Assembly: GCA_965197525.1 (NCBI GenBank) | Contig: OZ240211.1 | Location: 1,152,001-1,216,000 of the forward strand | DNA length: 64,000 nucleotides | Source of the DNA: Nitrosopumilus sp. | GTDB taxonomy: Archaea > Thermoproteota > Nitrososphaeria > Nitrososphaerales > Nitrosopumilaceae | Reading direction: 5' to 3' | Shown here: positions 54,460-64,000 of the stretch, piece after piece | Layout of the letters: each line of letters opens with the position of its first letter | Position numbering within the stretch: the first letter of the stretch is position 1 | The notes under the pieces: generated by a model | The model's input: the letters and a program-made list of their open reading frames with translations, nothing else | Database searches by the model: none | Told to the model about the DNA's origin: nothing | Program-made: the position numbers and the translations under genes

Positions 54460-54959
54460 TTGATAGAATGATGATTAGATTATTGTACGTGAGTTTAGAT
54501 GTATAATTCCATGCTTGATATGTTGCATCATATATGAGTTAAAACTAGTAAAACAAATGATTATAGAATCATATGACGTGTTTCAGCATATCTAATACAA
54601 AAAATATGTAAAATGTATGATAGGGCAATAACTTGAACCTTTATAATATTACTCTGAAAAAAATTTATCTTGTAATTGATCTCTTTTTTTCTCTCTCTAT
54701 CTCTCAAGTTATTTTATATCTGCATAGTTTAGAATTATATGTACATGTATCATTTACTGGAATAAAACACTTTTTGATCACTCTAAAATAGTATATCTTA
54801 CATTAAGCAATTTAATTATCGGAATCTTATCCAGTGATGCATATATTTTTGATCCAAAACATAGTATTGCATATGAGTAGCTGTTACTGACACTCATAAT
54901 ATGGAATTATAATAATACAAATAGATAGACTTTAAGACTAGGCATCATCACATACTACA

Positions 54960-56063
54960 TTGAATATAGACTATGACACAAGTCATGTGGTAAATCTCAA
55001 CTCTCTGCAAGACAACCAGATGAGAAAGATGGGAATACTAAGAGAAAAGGTCAGAGAATTAGAGGTGATTCCAATAGAGCCTGCGGGCTCATACATGCCC
55101 GTGACGTTCAAATCGTTTGATGGTGGCAGATTTGATATGCACTTTGAACCGTTTGAATTCGAGATAGTCAAAGTAGCAGATTCAAGTGGTAACGTTAGGA
55201 TGAACTTTGCGGCGCCTGTAGGAGATATGAGTAATGATAAAGTGTTAGAGGAGATGTTAGAGCCGTTAAACTCGCATCCTGTCATGTGCCACTTTTTAGA
55301 CATAATGGGCAAATCATCGCTAACAGAGATATCTGACATTCTAACTGCCAAAGGTACGCTGATGGAGATTGCAGAGTTTGCATGTATGTTTGATGCCATA
55401 AAACATGCCTCAAGAGATAACAAAACGATAATTCTCAAAGATGGATTGCTGCGTACTAAGAAGATAAAACATGAACTAATTCCATCACTTGTAGAAGTAT
55501 TACACAGAAACAAAGATCATGTAAAGGTGATAGGTGTAGCAAAAACATCAAGATTAGTATTTTTGCTACAAGCAGCACTTGCATGTGAGAAGATCTTCCC
55601 AAGAGAACAGATTGGATATGTCAGGATTCCATTAGGGATAGAGAACATGGCGTACAGATGGAATGGTGCAGGAACCATCCTGCGCGAAATGCCCACCAAG
55701 CTTACATACTCGTTTGGTAATCTGTACATTGCAAAACTCTCACGATACAAGAATCTCTTTGTAACAGTGGAACTGCCCCAAAGAACGGATGGAAGTAATG
55801 TATATTCTGAGGAAGAGGTGACAGAGATAATGAGCTATCTAGCAAAAGATGCAATGTATTCCTACCCCATGATAGGATATCCACAAACCATAATGCGAGC
55901 ACATGAATCAGCTGCAGGACTAGGAATTCCTGCATCCATGTTACATGAGAGTATAATAAAGGGGTTGATAAATAGATCCGATCCATTACTGGCAGAGTAC
56001 ATACGTGACTCAGTCATGCTTGATGAGATAATATCAAAGGAGTATCTTGGAGGCAAGGCATAA
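54960..56063 (+). CDS. nurA: NurA-family (RNase H-like) nuclease
   Basis: FKSFDGG, IILKDGLLR, VIGVAKTS, GYPQTIMRAHESA; TAATG overlap with the downstream ATPase. Confidence 0.75.
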   Translation: MNIDYDTSHVVNLNSLQDNQMRKMGILREKVRELEVIPIEPAGSYMPVTFKSFDGGRFDMHFEPFEFEIVKVADSSGNVRMNFAAPVGDMSNDKVLEEMLEPLNSHPVMCHFLDIMGKSSLTEISDILTAKGTLMEIAEFACMFDAIKHASRDNKTIILKDGLLRTKKIKHELIPSLVEVLHRNKDHVKVIGVAKTSRLVFLLQAALACEKIFPREQIGYVRIPLGIENMAYRWNGAGTILREMPTKLTYSFGNLYIAKLSRYKNLFVTVELPQRTDGSNVYSEEEVTEIMSYLAKDAMYSYPMIGYPQTIMRAHESAAGLGIPASMLHESIIKGLINRSDPLLAEYIRDSVMLDEIISKEYLGGKA

Positions 56064-57889
56064 TGGATGACGACGTAGTAGGAGTATTTACCGGTCTTGA
56101 GAGCTCATTATACGAGTACGTTGCAAAGATAATTGCCCCGTACAGACCCAACTTTAGGCTCGAGATAGGGACGCTGTTGCTAGTCCAGAATATGAAAGAA
56201 GACATAGTAGCAAGAATAATGGACTATTCGCCTAGTGGTGAATTTACTACTGCCATGGGGGAAAAGTGGTTAAGTGAGATAGCGTCCCAGGGCGCCATAG
56301 ATGAGATTGGTCATGACATAAAGAAGAGCAAGATAATCTACAAGATCAGGATAAAGGTATTAGGTTCCATAGAGGAAGGAGTATTTACTGCAGGACTCAA
56401 GAGAATACCGCAGATCACAAGCAAGGTAAAGCTGCCAAACAGGGAGCACCTGCAGACCATAATAAGCAAGGTGATGGAGGGACAAGGTGGCGGTGTACAT
56501 ATAGGCCACTACATCATGGATGAAGACATACAGATAACATTTGATGAAAGCAAGCTCAACTCAAAGAGGACCTTTGTATTTGCAAGGGCAGGATATGGAA
56601 AGAGTAATCTGATGAAGATAATATGCAAAGAATGGAGTAACCGCAACGGCGGACTGTTGGTATTTGATCAAGACGGCGAATACGCAGTAACGGATACTGA
56701 GGGAAGACCAGGTATCATGGACGGAAGAGAGGCGATTCTCATCACGAACCAAAAGATGAATGAAACCCTTGCAAACGTCTATCACAACAACAAGGTAAAT
56801 CTAGCTGATCTACCACACAGGATGATAGTACCGTTGTTGGTAAACCCCATCAAACATGAGACGGTTTTCTTTGGCAAGCTTATGGGCATGAAACCAAACA
56901 AATGGCCAGAACTAGTGAATTTACTACACACAAAAGGATGGGCAGCTGATTATGATGAAATAGATAAGATTGTGACAGGCGGTTCTTCAAGAGGGCCAAG
57001 CGAGATAGACATTAAACCTATACTGAACAATCTGGTGCCATCAATAAACAGTATACATGATCCAGATTCCAAGACAATTCAGATTGTTGAACAATCGCTA
57101 CGCCAAGGAAACGTGGTAATATTTGACATATCCCGGCTTGACTCCCAGACTGCGCGATGGCTGAGCTCCATGATAGTCACGATGATATTCAACCGGAACA
57201 AGGAGAATTTCATCAAGCATGGAGGAACCGGCCTCATCAAGGCTACATTTGTACTAGAAGAGGCGCACAATGTACTAGGTGGAAGTGATAGATCGTCTGC
57301 TCCGTCTGCGTTTGTTGAACTTGCAAAAGAGGGAAGAAAGTACAACCTAGGTGGAATATTCATAACCCAGCAACCCGGAAGCATACCTACTGATATCGTA
57401 AGCCAAGGCGACAACTTTTTTGTCTTCCATCTGTTAAGCAGAAAGGACCTCGAATCACTATCCAACGCAAACGCGCATTATTCTCGAGACATCATAACAC
57501 AGATACTCAATGAACCGATAAGAGGGAAGAGTTACATGTGGACGTCTCACCAACCGTTTGTCATACCTGTAATGATGAGGAATTTTGAGGATCTAGTACA
57601 ACCTAACAAAAGTGTGGAGAAACAAGCTGCTTCTCCTATCCTCCCACACATGCTAAAAGGTATGAGGGAGAAGGACAAAAATCCGATTATAAGATCAGTG
57701 TATGAAAAGTTTATCAAGATAGAAAAAGATCCGTCAATAGCTCAAGATAAAAAAGGTGTTGAAACTTTTAAAATTCTAACAGATGATGAAAAACAATATC
57801 TTGATGGCATAGATGCATTGCAGCCTGGTCATGATGGCAAACCATTTGCCCTCTCATACCCATATCAACGTAAACTAAAAGCCATGTGA
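56063..57889 (+). CDS. herA: HerA/FtsK-family ATPase (DUF87) with N-terminal HAS-like barrel
   Basis: Variant Walker A FARAGYGKS, FDQDGEY, Walker B LEEAH, AKEGRKY...ITQQP. Confidence 0.85.
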   Translation: MDDDVVGVFTGLESSLYEYVAKIIAPYRPNFRLEIGTLLLVQNMKEDIVARIMDYSPSGEFTTAMGEKWLSEIASQGAIDEIGHDIKKSKIIYKIRIKVLGSIEEGVFTAGLKRIPQITSKVKLPNREHLQTIISKVMEGQGGGVHIGHYIMDEDIQITFDESKLNSKRTFVFARAGYGKSNLMKIICKEWSNRNGGLLVFDQDGEYAVTDTEGRPGIMDGREAILITNQKMNETLANVYHNNKVNLADLPHRMIVPLLVNPIKHETVFFGKLMGMKPNKWPELVNLLHTKGWAADYDEIDKIVTGGSSRGPSEIDIKPILNNLVPSINSIHDPDSKTIQIVEQSLRQGNVVIFDISRLDSQTARWLSSMIVTMIFNRNKENFIKHGGTGLIKATFVLEEAHNVLGGSDRSSAPSAFVELAKEGRKYNLGGIFITQQPGSIPTDIVSQGDNFFVFHLLSRKDLESLSNANAHYSRDIITQILNEPIRGKSYMWTSHQPFVIPVMMRNFEDLVQPNKSVEKQAASPILPHMLKGMREKDKNPIIRSVYEKFIKIEKDPSIAQDKKGVETFKILTDDEKQYLDGIDALQPGHDGKPFALSYPYQRKLKAM

Positions 57890-58133
57890 TACTCTGGCAA
57901 CTAGATCATCTCACTTTTTCTGCAGGAGGATATAACACGCAGACAGCTAGCAAAAATAATATTCTAGAATGCAGAGATTCAATTTAGAAGAATCATAGTG
58001 TTTGGATACCGCTATCAGCAAAACGATCCACGCAATCAACACGCAGATAATCAAGTTTTATGGAACTAGATGTAGTTCCAAATAACAAAATGATCTACAC
58101 ATGGAATCATTTACCGGTTGTCATTATGATCCG

Positions 58134-60350
58134 TCAGTGTCCTTCTATATCAAACTCATCCTTTCTGGATTTTCTCATCGCCTCTAGCTTGGCTGCCTTT
58201 TTGGGTCGTAGGATCAGTACATAGCTTGATGCCACAAGGTACACGCTAAGCAGAACTATCTGTGCTACCACCGTCTCCAACGTCGGATATATTCCAGTCA
58301 TGGTGGCAAGATTGATGTCCAGTCTTGGTACCACACCCAACATGCTGGTGTATGGCACAAAGTCCAGTACCTGCAGCTCCCTTACTGCATTACCCAAAAA
58401 TGCAATAGAGAGGTATGCCCCTATTCCCATAGTCAGACCAAAGAGGACCCTTAGTGGCAAGCGTTTGCCCAGTCTTCTCATCACGAAATATATCAAGAGC
58501 AACGAGCCTATACCCACAATAAAGCCAAGGCCCACATAGAGCTCCAGATACTTTGCAAAGCCGAACATCGCCTGGTAGAACAGCACCGTCTCAAACCCCT
58601 CACGATAAATGGTAAAAAACGACAATAAGATAAAGACAGTCGCGCTTCCGGTAGTGGTAGCCTGCCAGACCTTGGCCTTTACAAACTCCATCCATTTCTT
58701 GTGTTCTATCTTGTTGAGTATCCAAAAGCTTACATAAAACAGCACAGCAGTCGCAGACAGGGCAGCAATAGCCTCAATAAGTTCCCGATTGGCGCCTGAT
58801 ATCTCTATGACATACGACGCTACCACCCACGTGATTCCAGTTGCCACTATTCCTGCCAGGATGCCATAGTAGACATGTGATTTGAACCGTGTGCTACGTG
58901 AGGCTTCCAGATACGTGAGTATAGCACCAAGTATGAGGACTGACTCTAGTCCCTCCCTAAATATGATGGCAAATGAGGCAGTAAATGCTATGAGCGGGGC
59001 GATCTGACCACTTCCAGTTACCAAGCGTTCGGATTCGTCCAAGTTGCGATCTATGGCTATGGATACTCGCTGGACATCCTCGTATGGAGCTTGTTCCTTG
59101 ATGAGGTTGCGCAGTTCGGCGAACTGATACTCCACCTCTAATGTAAAGTCAGGTGCAATAGGCCGTAGTGGGATCTCTACATATTCGTAGCTGTCAAGGT
59201 ACGCTGTCCTAGAGGTTGCATATGCAGAGGCATAATCACCATTCTCATAATGTATGAGCATCTCCTGTAGACTGGAGCGGATAAAATCGATCTCAGTCCT
59301 TACCTCAGCCTGCTGGTCTTCTGTGGAATCACCTCTCTCCTTGAGTGTCCTCTCAGCGTTGGCTGCCAACGGATCGGTGGTAGTAGCCAAGAATGCAACT
59401 GTCATCTCCTCGCCTCTGTTCAAATCTGGCAGTATGGACACCTCTAGAAATTCTCTGATTTCATCCGGACTCTGGCCATCCTTTATCATTCCTCTTAGCT
59501 CTTCTCTCATATCAATCTCCAGCGCATACATGAACTCGGCATCAATTATCTCCAGAGTGGGTTCCAAGTATTCAAAATTCTCCAAGTATGCCTCTATTGC
59601 TAGCTCCTCTGCTGCATCATAATCTCCTGCATCGACTGCCTCTAACAGCTTGGCGTACAGTACCCTGATGTTCTCGTACAGTTTCTCCTGATCGTGTCCT
59701 GCAGTCTGTGTACCTAAGAGATCCCGTTGTATGGCACTCACTATGTTGCCTATTGGTACGAATCCCATCCTGTTCTCCACACCTTCTTCCAAGTCGTTGA
59801 AGAACGATTGTTGCTCCAAGTCCAGCATCACGTTCAAATTCGCGTCCTGTTCAAAGAGCATCTTGGATTCTGAGAATATGGTTCTTGCGATCTCGTAGGC
59901 GGCATCATTCTCCTCGTCGATTGCAACAACATACTCCTCGTAGGCTGCTGACAGCATGTCAACTACCACTAGGTCGAGGTTTTCTGCATGAACATCATAA
60001 GCATTTAGTTGTGATAATATAGAGTCAAACTCCTGAGTCGAACCAGATTTTATGGATACTGGAAGATCCAAAAGGGATATGTGTAACTCGTTAGTGACAG
60101 ACTGGTCATGCTCCCGCAACCCCTGCAGACCCAGTGCTAGGTTATTTGACGCGAATTCTGCAGCGTATCGTGCGTTTTCTGCATCCCCATCTTGAGCAAA
60201 ATCTTTTCCAATGTTCAGTCCGGTCTCCACAATCTTCAGTGTGGAGACAGGCGAGTGTACAAATCCTTGCTGGAATGATTCAGATGGGATAAATAACAAT
60301 AAACTGACTATTACAGTTAACAGAAAATATCTATGGATAACTCGAAGCAA
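58134..60350 (-). CDS. FTR1/EfeU-family high-affinity iron permease with large N-terminal soluble region
   Basis: Two RExLE-type motifs (FREGLES, YREGFET) in the TM domain; soluble AYLENFEYLE and AYLDSYEYVE modules. Confidence 0.92.
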   Translation of the reverse strand: MLRVIHRYFLLTVIVSLLLFIPSESFQQGFVHSPVSTLKIVETGLNIGKDFAQDGDAENARYAAEFASNNLALGLQGLREHDQSVTNELHISLLDLPVSIKSGSTQEFDSILSQLNAYDVHAENLDLVVVDMLSAAYEEYVVAIDEENDAAYEIARTIFSESKMLFEQDANLNVMLDLEQQSFFNDLEEGVENRMGFVPIGNIVSAIQRDLLGTQTAGHDQEKLYENIRVLYAKLLEAVDAGDYDAAEELAIEAYLENFEYLEPTLEIIDAEFMYALEIDMREELRGMIKDGQSPDEIREFLEVSILPDLNRGEEMTVAFLATTTDPLAANAERTLKERGDSTEDQQAEVRTEIDFIRSSLQEMLIHYENGDYASAYATSRTAYLDSYEYVEIPLRPIAPDFTLEVEYQFAELRNLIKEQAPYEDVQRVSIAIDRNLDESERLVTGSGQIAPLIAFTASFAIIFREGLESVLILGAILTYLEASRSTRFKSHVYYGILAGIVATGITWVVASYVIEISGANRELIEAIAALSATAVLFYVSFWILNKIEHKKWMEFVKAKVWQATTTGSATVFILLSFFTIYREGFETVLFYQAMFGFAKYLELYVGLGFIVGIGSLLLIYFVMRRLGKRLPLRVLFGLTMGIGAYLSIAFLGNAVRELQVLDFVPYTSMLGVVPRLDINLATMTGIYPTLETVVAQIVLLSVYLVASSYVLILRPKKAAKLEAMRKSRKDEFDIEGH

Positions 60351-60489
60351 TATATTGATTGAATGTCGGTGTTTATTAAAAGCTTAATTTCATTCCATAG
60401 TTATAGAGTAGCCACGTACACTAACGGTATTAGAGGAGAGACACTATCTAAAATAAGAGCCAAAGTCAAAAAAAAATGGAATTGTTGTG

Positions 60490-63400
60490 CTATGCTGTGT
60501 ATCGCAGGCGTGTATTGTAACGTAGTCCTAGTACAACAGCAGATGTTATGGCAATGCCCAAGACTATCATAGCCAAGGTGCCAAACTCTGGTACGATCAC
60601 TGCGACTGTGTCCATTCTTTCCATCAACGCATCTATACGTTCGTTGATCTCGGCTACCGGAGCACCAGCATTCATCCTGTCTCGTAGTTCTTCACGCATG
60701 AGAGTCTCCACTTCTAGCATCAGATCCCGCTCACCAGCATCATCTAGTGGTCCTTCCAAGAACTCGTAATTATCAAGATATGCTTCTCTTACGAAACTCT
60801 CAGCCAAGGCAGCGTTACCTTGTCTGTACTCAATTCTTGCGTCTTCAAGTAATCGTCGAATTTCTGAGACGTAATCAAGCAGGTTTTCTTCTACTATCTC
60901 TCCAGAGAGATTCTGTAACGTCTTGACATTGTCCAAGCCTTCTGATACCAAGGTCGTCACCGTAGCCGTACTACCGTAAGACGTGACAATTGAGTCGATC
61001 TCATCGAGTATCGAGCCTAGTCTGGAAGTATCAGATGTAGATAGTGCTGAAAACTCACCAGAATTGGAATTGTATAGACTTTGTGCCCTGGATAGGAACG
61101 CCACGGTCTCGTCATACTCCACCTGATTCACTATTTTGCCGTCTGCGACAGCATCTACATATTCTATATCAATTAGGGTAAGTCTGTCTTTGATTCCAGA
61201 TAACGCAATGCCTATTGGACTAGTGTCTCCGCCCTCATATTGACGTATGACCGTCTCGACTATGGACAGTGAGGTCTCAAGTTTCTGGATCTTTGTGTTT
61301 TTACTTAGTGTAGATTCGGTGACCCTTATTACCTCCTCCATCTGGCGTAACACAGATCCGGCCTTGTCAGAATCCAATACGCGCTCCATATCTGGATGTA
61401 GTGTACGATAATAATAGAGTCCCTCGTATGCAAATTTCTTGGATCCTTGGGCGTCATCATCCTGCAACGCCTTGATTGCAGCTTCTATCTCTTCTACTGT
61501 CTTGAGTTTGAATATTTCAAGCAGATCGTCCTTGATTGTGTCACCTTGTTCAGGAGTCACGCTTCCAGTAGAGGAGATCGTGGCCAGAACATCATTTGTT
61601 GCATAATCTTTCTCAGATATTCCAAACTTTTTCTCCATCACATCAAACCATGCCAAGAGTCTATTAGCGTCATTTGTAACGATTGCATTCTCTATTTCGT
61701 GGTATGCGATCTTGTATATGGTCTTGTCAATTATCTGCCGATTGAGTTTTACCTGATCAACGTTGCCTTGTTTGAGCAGACGATCATCCTCGGAGAACGT
61801 GTCTGTGATTAACATGTCGTCTTGGGCGTCATTTGCCTTGGCTGCTGATTGGAAGACATCCTCGTAGATGGATTTCGCGCTATTTAGTTTGGATATGGCC
61901 TCGTTTGTGGTAGATGCCTTCTCAGATGCTGACAGTTCAGACTTTATCATACTCCAAGAGTCACCCAATGGGGTTGTTGGAGTGCCAGATAGTACAGCTG
62001 CTACCGTGTTCATCTTACCAAGTATGGTATTGATTCTAGAGTCTATCTCGGCTACCGGAGCACCAGATCTAATCCTGTCTCGCAGTTCCTCACGCATCAG
62101 AACCTCGACCTCTTCCATTAACCCACGCTCTCCGGCCTCTACGAGCGGTCCCTCTATGAACTCATAGTTGTCAAGGTATGCCTTTGTGACATAACTCAAT
62201 GCAAGATCAGAGTTGCCTTGACGGTATTCAGATTTTGCATCAGTAAGAAGTGTGTTAATTGTATCAACATAGTTTGACAAATTACTGGATTCATCATCAT
62301 ATCCGGTCATCTCGTCAATCTCATGTATTATTCCACCTGCCAGTGTCTCTACCGTATCAGGACTTGCTATTTGGTCGTATGCTGCCCAGAGTTCCTCGTA
62401 GAGTTCCTCAATCTCGTCTGCCTCATGACTATCAATGTCAGACTTTATCTCATTGAAGATCTGCTGGGATCTCCACACAAATGCAGAGCCGTCCTGGAAT
62501 TCTGCTACCTCTGTAATGGCACCGTTGGTAACTGCCTCACCATATTCTGCAATGGATGTCTCTAGAAGACCTTTCATAAGTAATAGTTTAAAGTTAGGAT
62601 CAGCACTCACTCCTGCATTTATGACCGTGTTGCGTACGGTCTCGACTAGTTCCTTTGCATCATCGACTGCCTGTTGTGCTTGGGCACGTGACACATCAGT
62701 TGATGCCTTGTCCTTTAGTTCTACGAGCACGGTTCGGAATTGGGCGTCAAGTGCTGGATTTGCATCTTGTATAACTGGTTTCATGACATCGTATAGTTCA
62801 GCAATTGGATGCGTTGCATGAACAATAGCTAGTTCAGCATTTCTCTCATCTAAATTCAATTCAATAGCCCAGAAGTGACCCAATGTCTCTTCGAGGCTTC
62901 CTGCAAACGCGACAGTTGCATCATCATATCCGGTAAGATCATCAATCTCGTGGATTATTCCACCTGCCAGTGTCTCTACCGTATCAGGACTTGCTATTTG
63001 GTCGTATGCTGCCCAGAGTTCCTCGTAGAGTTCCTCAATCTCGTCTGCCTCATGACTATCAATGTCAGACTTTATCTCATTGAAGATCTGCTGGGATCTC
63101 CACACAAATGCAGAGCCGTCCTGGAATTCTGCTACCTCTGTAATTCACCATATTCTGCATGTCTCTAGAAGACCTTTCATAAGTAATAGTTTAAAGTTAG
63201 GATCAGCACTCACTCCTGCATTTATGACCGTGTTGCGTACGGTCTCGACTAGTTCCTTTGCATCATCGACTGCCTGTTGTGCTTGGGCACGTGACACATC
63301 AGTTGATGCCTTGTCCTTTAGTTCTACGAGCACGGTTCGGAATTGGGCGTCAAGTGCTGGATTTGCATCTTGTATAACTGGTTTCATGACATCGTATAGT

Positions 63401-63603
63401 TCAGCAATTGGATGCGTTGCATGAACAATAGCTAGTTCAGCATTTCTCTCATCTAAATTCAATTCAATAGCCCAGAAGTGACCCAATGTCTCTTCGAGGC
63501 TTCCTGCAAACGCGACAGTCTCATCACTATCTGCAAATGCAAGTGGAGTGGCAGATAAAATTGTCAATATAGATACTGTAAACAGTATTTTATCATATTG
63601 CAT
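60490..63603 (-). pseudogene. PEFG-CTERM surface protein of Glu-rich helical modules (putative iron capture), one frame interrupted by a UGA at 63145-63147
   Basis: Track ORFs 63145-63603 and 60490-63105 are in the same frame. N-terminal signal peptide, C-terminal VPEFG + TM + basic tail, AYLDNYEF(I/L)EGPL twice. Confidence 0.85.
62292..63519. repeat. Near-identical tandem duplication (627-bp unit; second copy 603 bp)
   Basis: CATCATCATATCCGGT recurs at 62292 and 62919 (offset 627); GACAGT at 62911 and 63514 (offset 603). The difference is 19-nt and 5-nt deletions near 63144-63160. Confidence 0.95.
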
Positions 63604-64000
63604 AATAGAATTTGTTCTTATGTGCTTTTTAAGTTGTTTGCAGGTTATAGAATGATATTTTATGAGTATAAAATAAGTATAGAGAATGTATTTTAGAAAA
63701 TAATTTGATTATTCGCATCTTTGGTTGATTTACATTTCTAAATAATGTATGAAACAAAGCACGAGTTATAGGTAATCTAAGCAGCTAGAAAGTTAATTTG
63801 GAAAATTAATTTTATCAAAAAGGTACTTGCTCACATCCCTCTTGATTAGTGCCTATGGATAGGTCGATGTGGATTATAGTTATGCACGGAGTAAGGTATG
63901 ACGTGAACAAGTACTCAAAAAGAATTTCAATATGATTCTGGTACAAACTTGATAAAAAAGATCAAAATATGTGTATTTATACAAATCCTACAACTCGAAA

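What the first reader, a model, noticed from the sequence alone, without database searches (positions are those of the whole stretch)
54460..57889. Stand-alone, translationally coupled NurA-HerA pair with variant Walker A: candidate anti-MGE nuclease-translocase
Seen: nurA and herA overlap (TAATG), follow a ~500-bp very AT-rich spacer, and sit between cobO and the iron locus with no mre11/rad50 nearby. HerA Walker A is ARAGYGKS rather than GxxGxGKS. Established: the archaeal repair HerA-NurA is normally encoded with mre11-rad50, and HerA ATPases paired with effectors (Sir2-HerA, DUF4297-HerA) are anti-phage systems. Inference: this is a second, accessory NurA-HerA module that may be a defence system rather than a repair enzyme.
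Basis: partly seen in the sequence, partly recalled or inferred. Interest (0 to 1): 0.75.

Follow-up and report, generated by a model that had tools for sequence, protein, structure and literature searches.

The report
Accessory TdpAB-like NurA-HerA nuclease-motor pair
Besides its normal DNA-repair operon, this ammonia-oxidising archaeon carries a rare, horizontally acquired nuclease and DNA-motor gene pair whose closest studied relative is an anti-virus system (TdpAB), so it is probably a foreign-DNA shredder, though nothing has been tested by experiment.

Summary
A NurA-like gene (55020-56063) and a HerA gene (56063-57889) overlap as TAATG. They follow a 560-bp spacer of 27.5% GC and lie between cobO and an FTR1 locus. 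The "variant" Walker A (ARAGYGKS) is ordinary [AG]xxxxGK[ST].

- The genome has a canonical nurA-herA-mre11-rad50 operon about 100 kb upstream, plus a third, unrelated NurA-HerA pair.
- True orthologues of the window pair occur in only 4 of 301 genomes of the order, and in one relative they sit in a different place.
- The HerA branches far from the canonical copy.

Both proteins are closest to TdpAB, the restriction half of the phosphorothioate-based TdpABC defence. The NurA model matches TdpB at TM 0.72, and the family profiles hit TdpB at 2e-16 and TdpA at 1e-35.

In 80 related loci the pair is always coupled. It is flanked by DruA in 29 and by a DNA methylase in 13. Here, and in its Nitrosopumilaceae sisters, it stands alone, with no DruA anywhere in four complete genomes, yet it is under strong purifying selection.

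Most likely (about 0.55) it is a self-sufficient anti-mobile-element translocase-nuclease. A second repair complex is the main rival.

This scan has already found the DruA-NurA-HerA cassette in at least 32 other genomes. This window holds the DruA-less form.

The parts
54460..55019 (.). AT-rich non-coding spacer between cobO and the cassette. It presumably carries the cassette's promoter. It is not conserved in the G018 orthologous locus.
   Evidence: GC is 27.5%, in the lowest 0.6% of 500-bp windows of the genome, and the sequence is unique in the genome. No ORF of 60 aa or more, no Rfam family, no tRNA, no flanking repeats. DNA homology with G018 starts only at 55005.
55020..56063 (+). NurA-like (TdpB-like) RNase H-fold nuclease, 347 aa from ATG 55020. 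The mechanical ORF starts at TTG 54960.
   Evidence: Pfam NurA scores 26.4 bits. In the 45-sequence family alignment, D34, E119, G142 and R145 are invariant and H295 and D277 nearly so. NurA motifs I (SFDGG), II (ILKDGLL) and III (MRAHESAA) are all present. The AF2 model has pLDDT 87.7. Its best fold match is TdpB 8wfd_G at TM 0.72/0.70, against Sso NurA at 0.46 and Deinococcus NurA at 0.44. The family profile hits TdpB at 2.1e-16 and no other NurA in the PDB.
56063..57889 (+). HerA-family (TdpA-like) hexameric DNA-translocase ATPase, 608 aa. Its start overlaps the NurA stop (TAATG).
   Evidence: DUF87 scores 64.8 bits. Walker A is ARAGYGKS (residues 174-181) and Walker B is FVLEEAH (396-402); K180, E400, R425 and Q436 are invariant in the family. 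The best PDB sequence relative is TdpA 8wet, at 9e-30 for the single sequence and 1.3e-35 for the profile. Sso HerA scores 4e-14 and 2.8e-20. Deinococcus HerA is not hit.
57890..58133 (.). Non-coding spacer of 244 bp between the HerA stop and the end of the convergent FTR1 gene.
   Evidence: Unique in the genome. Homology with G018 ends at 57905.
54460..64000 (.). Variable block of about 10.2 kb, running on to window-equivalent 64634, just past the window end. It is absent between cobO and the next gene in the three nearest relatives. It holds the spacer, the NurA-HerA cassette, the FTR1 permease, the PEFG-CTERM protein and a small ORF.
   Evidence: In G014, G009 and G021, cobO is followed within about 30 bp by a 269-aa gene whose G000 orthologue starts at genome 1216635. 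In G021 the FTR1 pair lies elsewhere, inside a region syntenic with G000 at 197-219 kb.

Best explanation
The pair is a horizontally acquired, accessory two-gene cassette. It encodes a TdpAB-like complex: a HerA-family ring ATPase that pumps double-stranded DNA into a NurA-fold nuclease.

It is separate from the cell's repair machinery, which is the canonical nurA-herA-mre11-rad50 operon elsewhere in the genome. It most likely degrades invading DNA from viruses, plasmids or other linear or unprotected molecules.

In other genomes the same cassette carries a third gene: DruA, or a DNA methylase. In the characterised cousin TdpABC the third gene is the phosphorothioate-writing TdpC. That third gene probably marks or regulates self DNA. 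The Nitrosopumilaceae branch, including this window, has kept only the nuclease-motor pair.

Shown:
- gene content, coupling and catalytic motifs;
- closest relatives by structure and by sequence;
- patchy distribution, different insertion sites, and purifying selection.

Inferred:
- the 6:2 complex and the DNA-shredding activity, by homology with TdpAB and HerA-NurA;
- the defence role;
- how self DNA is spared. One possibility is that the complex needs free DNA ends. Another is that it reads a mark made by an unlinked enzyme.
For: - A canonical repair operon exists elsewhere, so this pair is surplus to repair.
- It is rare and mobile. It occurs in 2 of 37 genomes of the genus and 4 of 301 of the order. 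G018 has an unrelated insertion site, with homology limited to 55005-57905. In G000 the pair lies in a 10.2-kb block missing from the three nearest relatives.
- Relatives at 45-60% identity occur across archaeal phyla, and at 31-37% across many bacterial phyla. The tree mixes phyla.
- TdpAB is the closest solved relative of both subunits. tdpABC is a phosphorothioate-based restriction-modification-like defence (PMC12914056, citing An et al. 2025).
- NurA sits directly upstream of HerA in about 75 of 80 related loci.
- DruA is the adjacent third gene in 29 loci (Pfam DruA 218-295 bits in three representatives; PADLOC DruA1 388 bits in one), and an N6/N4 methylase in 13. The type of third gene follows the HerA tree.
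- Catalytic and ATPase residues are intact.
- Selection is purifying: dN is 0.12 for HerA and 0.21-0.23 for NurA, with synonymous sites saturated, against solo orthologues.
Against: - No experiment exists for this family.
- The window cassette has no modification or sensor gene next to it. Its neighbours here and in G018 are housekeeping or transport genes, not a defence island.
- A PADLOC scan of 123 near and 125 far neighbour proteins across the 80 loci gave only scattered defence hits in both sets, with no clear enrichment beyond the third gene.
- PADLOC and NCBIfam HerA models score the canonical repair HerA as high as this one (93 against 96 bits), so those hits say nothing about defence.
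- TdpAB is a distant cousin (18% identity for the nuclease), not an orthologue.
- Base composition is not foreign: the pair is 41.9% GC against 39.6% for the genome.
- A nuclease-motor without a self-marking partner could equally be a repair or recombination device.
Confidence: 0.55

Rival explanations
1. It is a second DNA-repair or recombination end-resection complex: a paralogous HerA-NurA used for a special repair task such as stalled forks or stress, working without Mre11-Rad50, as the Deinococcus and Thermus pairs do.
For: The NurA fold and HerA ATPase have intact catalytic motifs. Bacterial NurA-HerA pairs without mre11-rad50 linkage are described as resection enzymes (PMC9960219). No modification gene is adjacent, and no DruA exists in four solo-carrying genomes. 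The neighbours are housekeeping genes. Selection is purifying.
Against: Presence in 4 of 301 genomes of the order, at different chromosomal sites, fits an accessory trait and not core repair. The genome already has a full canonical operon. The pair is not of the Deinococcus type: DrHerA is absent from the PDB hits and DrNurA reaches only TM 0.44. Its nearest solved relative is a defence complex, and its family is linked with DruA or methylases.
Confidence: 0.25
2. It is a leftover of a three-gene DruA-NurA-HerA (or methylase-linked) cassette that lost its third gene. It is now functionless or drifting, kept only by chance.
For: One Nitrosopumilus relative (L023) and the neighbouring archaeal branches still carry DruA. 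Solo forms are scattered through the tree, which suggests repeated loss.
Against: Both ORFs are intact with all catalytic residues. dN is 0.12-0.23 with saturated dS against other solo orthologues. Six of the seven Nitrosopumilaceae rows are solo and span 57-81% identity, so the solo state is old and maintained. Metagenome homologues at 87-91% identity are full length.
Confidence: 0.08
3. It belongs to a mobile element's own machinery, serving DNA processing, packaging or transfer for an integrated virus or plasmid, as other HerA/FtsK ATPases do.
For: HerA/FtsK ATPases pump DNA for conjugative elements and some viruses (PMC10853773). The pair lies in a variable 10-kb block.
Against: No relative was found in 72,556 plasmid records, 50,697 phage records or the IMG/VR contigs with the patterns used. 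No integrase, tRNA, terminal repeat or other element gene flanks the pair. In G018 only the two genes are shared.
Confidence: 0.05

Closest known systems
TdpAB, the restriction half of the TdpABC phosphorothioate-based defence of thermophiles (An et al., Nat Chem Biol 2025; PDB 8wet, 8wfd, 8y1k)
   Same: It is a two-subunit HerA-type ATPase plus NurA-fold nuclease. It is the best solved relative of both window proteins: TdpA at E 9e-30 (profile 1.3e-35), and TdpB at fold TM 0.72/0.70 and profile E 2.1e-16. The subunit sizes are similar.
   Different: It is a distant cousin only, with about 18% identity for the nuclease. The window has no third gene, and I could not test for a TdpC homologue because no TdpC sequence was available. 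Phosphorothioate sensing cannot be tested here. The host is a mesophilic ammonia oxidiser, not a thermophile.
DruA-NurA-HerA (and methylase-NurA-HerA) cassettes. I found no paper describing them in the searched library. This scan has noted them repeatedly (for example e1-3205912, e1-5202751, e1-5597203).
   Same: The window HerA and NurA are true members of this family. The archaeal clade of 16 rows has 99% support. NurA and HerA have the same order and the same overlap.
   Different: The third gene is missing. G000 has no DruA by tblastn or by six-frame HMM. Three other solo-carrying genomes have none either, while the positive controls were found.
Canonical archaeal HerA-NurA of the nurA-herA-mre11-rad50 repair operon
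   Same: Same two protein families, same gene order (nurA then herA), and the same NurA motifs I-III and HerA Walker motifs.
   Different: The genome's canonical copy is a separate operon about 100 kb away. The two HerAs share 27% identity over the C-terminal half only. The window NurA model fits Sso NurA at only TM 0.46. Distribution is sporadic, not lineage-wide.
Bacterial NurA-HerA of Deinococcus radiodurans (PDB 7WRW, 7WRX, 7F6D; PMC9960219)
   Same: It is a stand-alone two-gene nurA-herA operon without mre11-rad50, and its HerA is about 600 aa.
   Different: DrHerA is in the PDB but is not among the sequence hits of the window HerA or of its family profile. DrNurA reaches TM 0.44.
Sir2-HerA and DUF4297-HerA anti-phage systems
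   Same: A HerA-family ATPase is paired with an effector in a two-gene system.
   Different: The effector here is NurA, not Sir2 or DUF4297. The NCBIfam anti-phage HerA models score 61 and 45 bits against cut-offs of 800 and 850. PDB relatives 8j4u and 8xau are weaker hits than TdpA.

Membership tests
Canonical archaeal HerA-NurA DSB-repair module | Encoded with, or orthologous to, the herA/nurA of the mre11-rad50 cluster | tested here: not met
   No mre11 or rad50 is adjacent. The canonical nurA-herA-mre11-rad50 operon is at genome 1103154-1109563. The window HerA is far from it on the tree.
Canonical archaeal HerA-NurA DSB-repair module | Conserved across the lineage, as core repair genes are | tested here: not met
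   True orthologues occur in 4 of 301 genomes of the order. HerA ORFs of 513-531 aa, the size of the canonical copy, appear in 33 of 36 genomes of the genus.
Canonical archaeal HerA-NurA DSB-repair module | NurA RNase H-like fold with motifs I-III, and HerA with Walker A/B | tested here: met
   Motif definitions are from PMC13748450.
TdpABC | TdpA-like HerA ATPase and TdpB-like nuclease encoded together | tested here: met
   TdpA is the best PDB sequence hit. TdpB is the best fold hit at TM 0.72 and the only NurA-type profile hit, at 2.1e-16. The homology is distant.
TdpABC | Adjacent tdpC gene that writes the phosphorothioate mark | tested here: not met
   No third gene is present. The cassette is bounded by cobO and a convergent FTR1 gene. 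A TdpC homologue elsewhere in the genome could not be searched, because no TdpC sequence was available.
TdpABC | Translocation and nuclease activity blocked by phosphorothioate in self DNA | not testable with these tools
   This needs biochemistry and analysis of DNA modifications.
DruA-NurA-HerA cassette (undescribed family) | HerA and NurA orthologous to those of DruA-linked cassettes | tested here: met
   The window lies in an archaeal clade (99% support) with DruA-linked rows from Thermoplasmata, Methanoperedens, Micrarchaeia and one Nitrosopumilus.
DruA-NurA-HerA cassette (undescribed family) | DruA (PF14236) gene adjacent to the pair | tested here: not met
   None is adjacent and none exists anywhere in G000. 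None was found in G018, G074 or G250, while the positive controls were found.
Sir2-HerA / DUF4297-HerA | Sir2 or DUF4297 effector next to HerA, and HerA above the curated anti-phage HerA cut-off | tested here: not met
   The partner is NurA. NF042943 scores 60.9 bits and NF042944 scores 44.6 bits, against cut-offs of 800 and 850.
Deinococcus-type bacterial NurA-HerA | Sequence or fold closest to DrHerA and DrNurA | tested here: not met
   DrHerA (7WRW, 7WRX, 7F6D) is absent from the hit lists. DrNurA reaches TM 0.44, against 0.72 for TdpB.

The most novel reading that the evidence does not exclude
TdpAB-like NurA-HerA pairs are the common engine of a broad, modular class of "shred foreign DNA" immune systems. 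The self-marking or regulatory partner is interchangeable: TdpC (phosphorothioate), a DNA methylase, or DruA. The solo Nitrosopumilaceae form shows that the engine can be kept for long periods with no partner at all. It would therefore tell self from foreign in some other way, for example by needing free DNA ends or by reading a mark made by an unlinked enzyme. That would also mean DruA is not an obligatory antidote to the nuclease.
Probability: 0.35. Interest if true: 0.75.

Novelty: new variant of a known kind. Interest (0 to 1): 0.55.

Why it matters
HerA-NurA is usually read as archaeal DNA repair, and genome annotation would file this pair there. Here one small genome holds three such pairs. 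Only one is the repair operon, and the window pair belongs to a mobile family whose nearest studied relative is an immune nuclease.

If the solo form defends the cell, it is a minimal two-gene DNA-degrading immune module in ammonia-oxidising archaea, a globally abundant group whose antiviral systems are poorly known.

It also gives a natural "minus DruA" control for working out what DruA, the unexplained signature protein of Druantia, does.

Tried and rejected
- The Walker A "variant" was rejected. It fits the general motif, and the canonical HerA of the same genome also begins with Ala.
- PADLOC and NCBIfam HerA hits were rejected as evidence for defence. The canonical repair HerA scores the same.
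- A decayed third gene in the AT-rich spacer or downstream gap: no DruA or methylase remnant by tblastn or six-frame HMM. No ORF, RNA family, tRNA or repeats.
- DruA as a solved structure: a DruA neighbour gave no PDB sequence hit, so its relation to TdpC stays open. The TdpABC paper itself is not held.
- Carriage on mobile elements: nothing in plasmids, phages or IMG/VR.
- A conserved alternative third gene in solo loci: the neighbours vary. They include enoyl-CoA hydratase, a solute-binding protein, an aldolase, DUF3047, an HNH protein, a STAND-like ATPase and DUF4268.
- Defence-island enrichment by PADLOC on near against far neighbours was inconclusive. The tool reports counts per family, not per protein.
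- A maximum-likelihood tree with the mixture model did not finish in the time allowed, so FastTree was used. The canonical and locus-B rows sit on very long branches, so their exact placement is unsure.
- dN/dS could not be given as a ratio for most pairs, because synonymous sites are saturated.
Full report
**What is in the sequence.** The stretch holds two co-oriented ORFs. The first runs to 56063. Its mechanical start is TTG 54960, but ATG 55020 is the likelier start, because DNA homology with the one orthologous locus in the genus begins at 55005. It matches Pfam NurA at 26.4 bits against a cut-off of 21. The second, 56063-57889, encodes 608 aa and matches the HerA central domain DUF87 at 64.8 bits. 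The NurA stop and the HerA start share one base, giving TAATG.

Upstream, 54460-55019 is 560 bp of 27.5% GC. That places it in the lowest 0.6% of 500-bp windows of a 39.6% GC genome, and it is unique in the genome. It has no ORF of 60 aa or more, no Rfam match and no tRNA, and no repeats flank the cassette. The neighbours are cobB and cobO on one side and a convergent FTR1/EfeU-like permease and a PEFG-CTERM protein on the other.

ARAGYGKS (residues 174-181) fits [AG]xxxxGK[ST] and is conserved family-wide. The genome's canonical HerA also has Ala first, as ATTGRGKS.

**Three NurA-HerA pairs in one 2.2-Mb genome.** A whole-genome search found three DUF87 genes, each preceded by a NurA-domain gene.
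- Locus A (genome 1103154-1109563) is nurA(379)-herA(525)-mre11(416)-rad50(813). The last two have Mre11 and Rad50 as their best NCBIfam hits, below the lineage-specific cut-offs. The gene order matches the one reported for Nitrososphaera genomes (PMC13707971).
- Locus B (1131159-1135337) is NurA(389)-HerA(606) followed by a C5 cytosine methylase.
- The window pair is the third.

The three are very divergent. Window HerA against A shows 27% identity over the C-terminal half. Against B, only a 43-residue patch aligns.

**An accessory, mobile gene pair.**
- Within the genus, one other genome (G018) of 36 searched has a true orthologue, at 80% identity. The other HerA hits are 513-531-aa ORFs at about 25% identity.
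- In an even draw of 301 genomes of the order, 4 have the pair.
- Between G000 and G018, only 55005-57905 is alignable. In G018 the pair sits between tatC and purF-purL-purQ.
- In the three nearest relatives, cobO is followed directly by a 269-aa gene whose G000 orthologue lies 10.2 kb further on. The spacer, the pair and the FTR1/PEFG-CTERM genes therefore form a variable block. The FTR1 genes lie elsewhere in other species.
- The pair's GC (41.9%) is close to the genome's, so the acquisition is not recent or came from a similar donor.
- Against the solo orthologues, dN is 0.12 for HerA and 0.21-0.23 for NurA, with synonymous sites saturated. This shows strong purifying selection.

**The wider family.** The HerA has hundreds of homologues. 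In the species-representative genomes, relatives at 45-60% identity occur in Nitrosopumilaceae, Thermoplasmata, Methanoperedens, Micrarchaeia and Promethearchaeota. Relatives at 31-37% occur in many bacterial phyla. A NurA-like ORF lies directly upstream in about 75 of the 80 loci kept.

Clustering the neighbours showed a recurrent third gene next to the pair, on either side and in either orientation. It is DruA in 29 loci; the three representatives scanned score 218-295 bits against PF14236, and the one scanned with PADLOC scores 388 bits against DruA1. It is an N6/N4 DNA methylase in 13 loci. Twenty-nine complete loci have neither.

On a FastTree of the HerAs, the methylase-linked rows form one bacterial subclade, and most DruA-linked rows lie in one other bacterial subclade and in the archaeal clade. 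Solo rows are interspersed among them. The window lies in an archaeal clade of 16 rows (99% support). Its Nitrosopumilaceae subclade has six solo rows and one DruA-linked row. Solo loci share no alternative third gene.

DUF4338/DruA has been called a GNAT-like domain (PMC10853773). Its function is unknown.

**The closest characterised relative is a defence complex.** By sequence, the best PDB hit of the HerA is TdpA, at 9e-30 for the single sequence and 1.3e-35 for the family profile. Sulfolobus HerA scores 4e-14 and 2.8e-20. Deinococcus HerA is in the PDB but is not hit.

The NurA alone finds nothing in the PDB by sequence. A 45-sequence family profile hits TdpB at 2.1e-16 and no other NurA. 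An AlphaFold model (pLDDT 87.7) superposes best on TdpB, at TM 0.72/0.70. That is well ahead of Sulfolobus NurA (0.46), Deinococcus NurA (0.44) and Thermococcus NurA (0.38).

tdpABC is a phosphorothioate-based restriction-modification-like system in which tdpC alone writes the mark (PMC12914056). From my own knowledge of An et al. 2025, which I could not read here, TdpA is the hexameric translocase and TdpB the nuclease, and phosphorothioate in self DNA blocks them.

The NurA motifs defined in PMC13748450 are all present. D34, E119, G142 and R145 are invariant, and H295 and D277 nearly so.

**The solo state.**
- G000 has no DruA, by tblastn with 29 DruA proteins and by a six-frame HMM search.
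- A DruA profile found nothing in the three other solo-carrying Nitrosopumilaceae genomes (98-99% complete). It did find the gene in both positive-control genomes.
- The pair is therefore kept under selection without DruA in cis or in trans.
- Nothing related was found on plasmids, phages or IMG/VR contigs.

**Interpretation.** The best reading, at about 0.55, is an accessory TdpAB-like translocase-nuclease that attacks foreign DNA. It is a partner-less member of a family whose other members carry DruA or a methylase. The defence role, the complex and the way self DNA is spared are all inferred.

The main rival, at about 0.25, is a second repair or recombination complex. The lack of any marking gene, the housekeeping neighbours and the inconclusive PADLOC comparison of near and far neighbours keep it alive. 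A decaying remnant and a mobile-element function are less likely, for the reasons given under the rival explanations.

**Known or new.** I found no paper in the searchable library that links NurA-HerA with DruA or describes such pairs as defence. A 2026 review still treats bacterial and Asgard NurA homologues as uncharacterised. This scan has already reported the DruA-NurA-HerA cassette in at least 32 other genomes, and the same stretch was noted from an overlapping window. I found the DruA link independently before reading those notes.

What this window adds:
- the DruA-less form, with evidence that it is maintained;
- three NurA-HerA families co-existing in one genome.

I rate it a new variant of a known kind (TdpAB-type nuclease-motor), of moderate interest.

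**Limits.**
- The tree is FastTree only, and the two outgroup rows are on long branches.
- Gene calls in the related loci are greedy longest ORFs.
- The 80 loci are the best of 440 confirmed relatives, not a census.

Noticed in passing
outside the window: G000 genome 1131159-1135337 (L006:6160-10338): A third NurA(389 aa)-HerA(606 aa) pair, unrelated in sequence to the window pair, is followed by a C5 cytosine DNA methylase. Its HerA family was found in 0 of 73 other genomes of the same family, but in 21 of 73 genomes of another family of the order, at 37-50% identity. NurA is adjacent there. No methylase was seen in the 1.5-kb flanks of five relatives.
   Followed up: partly
outside the window: G000 genome 1103154-1109563 (L005:7155-13564): Canonical nurA-herA-mre11-rad50 operon, with four tightly packed genes. 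The best NCBIfam hits are HerA, Mre11 and Rad50, all below the lineage-specific equivalog cut-offs.
   Followed up: yes
window 54460-64000, running on to about 64634: A block of about 10.2 kb is absent between cobO and the next gene in the three nearest relatives. Its FTR1 permease and PEFG-CTERM protein pair sits in a different chromosomal context in G021, G002 and G018, so the iron-uptake pair also moves between sites.
   Followed up: partly
L019 (G018:C1:1670000-1689000) compared with the window: Two genomes placed in one genus differ greatly in base composition: about 55-60% GC around the G018 cassette against about 40% in G000. The shared cassette has followed each host's composition.
   Followed up: no
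L088:14828-16114: One Phycisphaeraceae locus has a second NurA-like ORF about 3 kb downstream of its NurA-HerA-methylase cassette.
   Followed up: no
L035:3842-5344: In a Thermoplasmatota locus, an N6/N4 methylase fused to an Mrr-like restriction-endonuclease domain lies directly upstream of a NurA-HerA-DruA cassette. That cassette therefore has both a methylase and DruA beside it.
   Followed up: no
window 56063-57889 and L005:8296-9873: PADLOC HerA model PDLC04105 scores the canonical repair HerA (93 bits) about as high as the accessory HerA (96 bits). HerA hits in PADLOC alone cannot separate defence copies from repair copies.
   Followed up: yes
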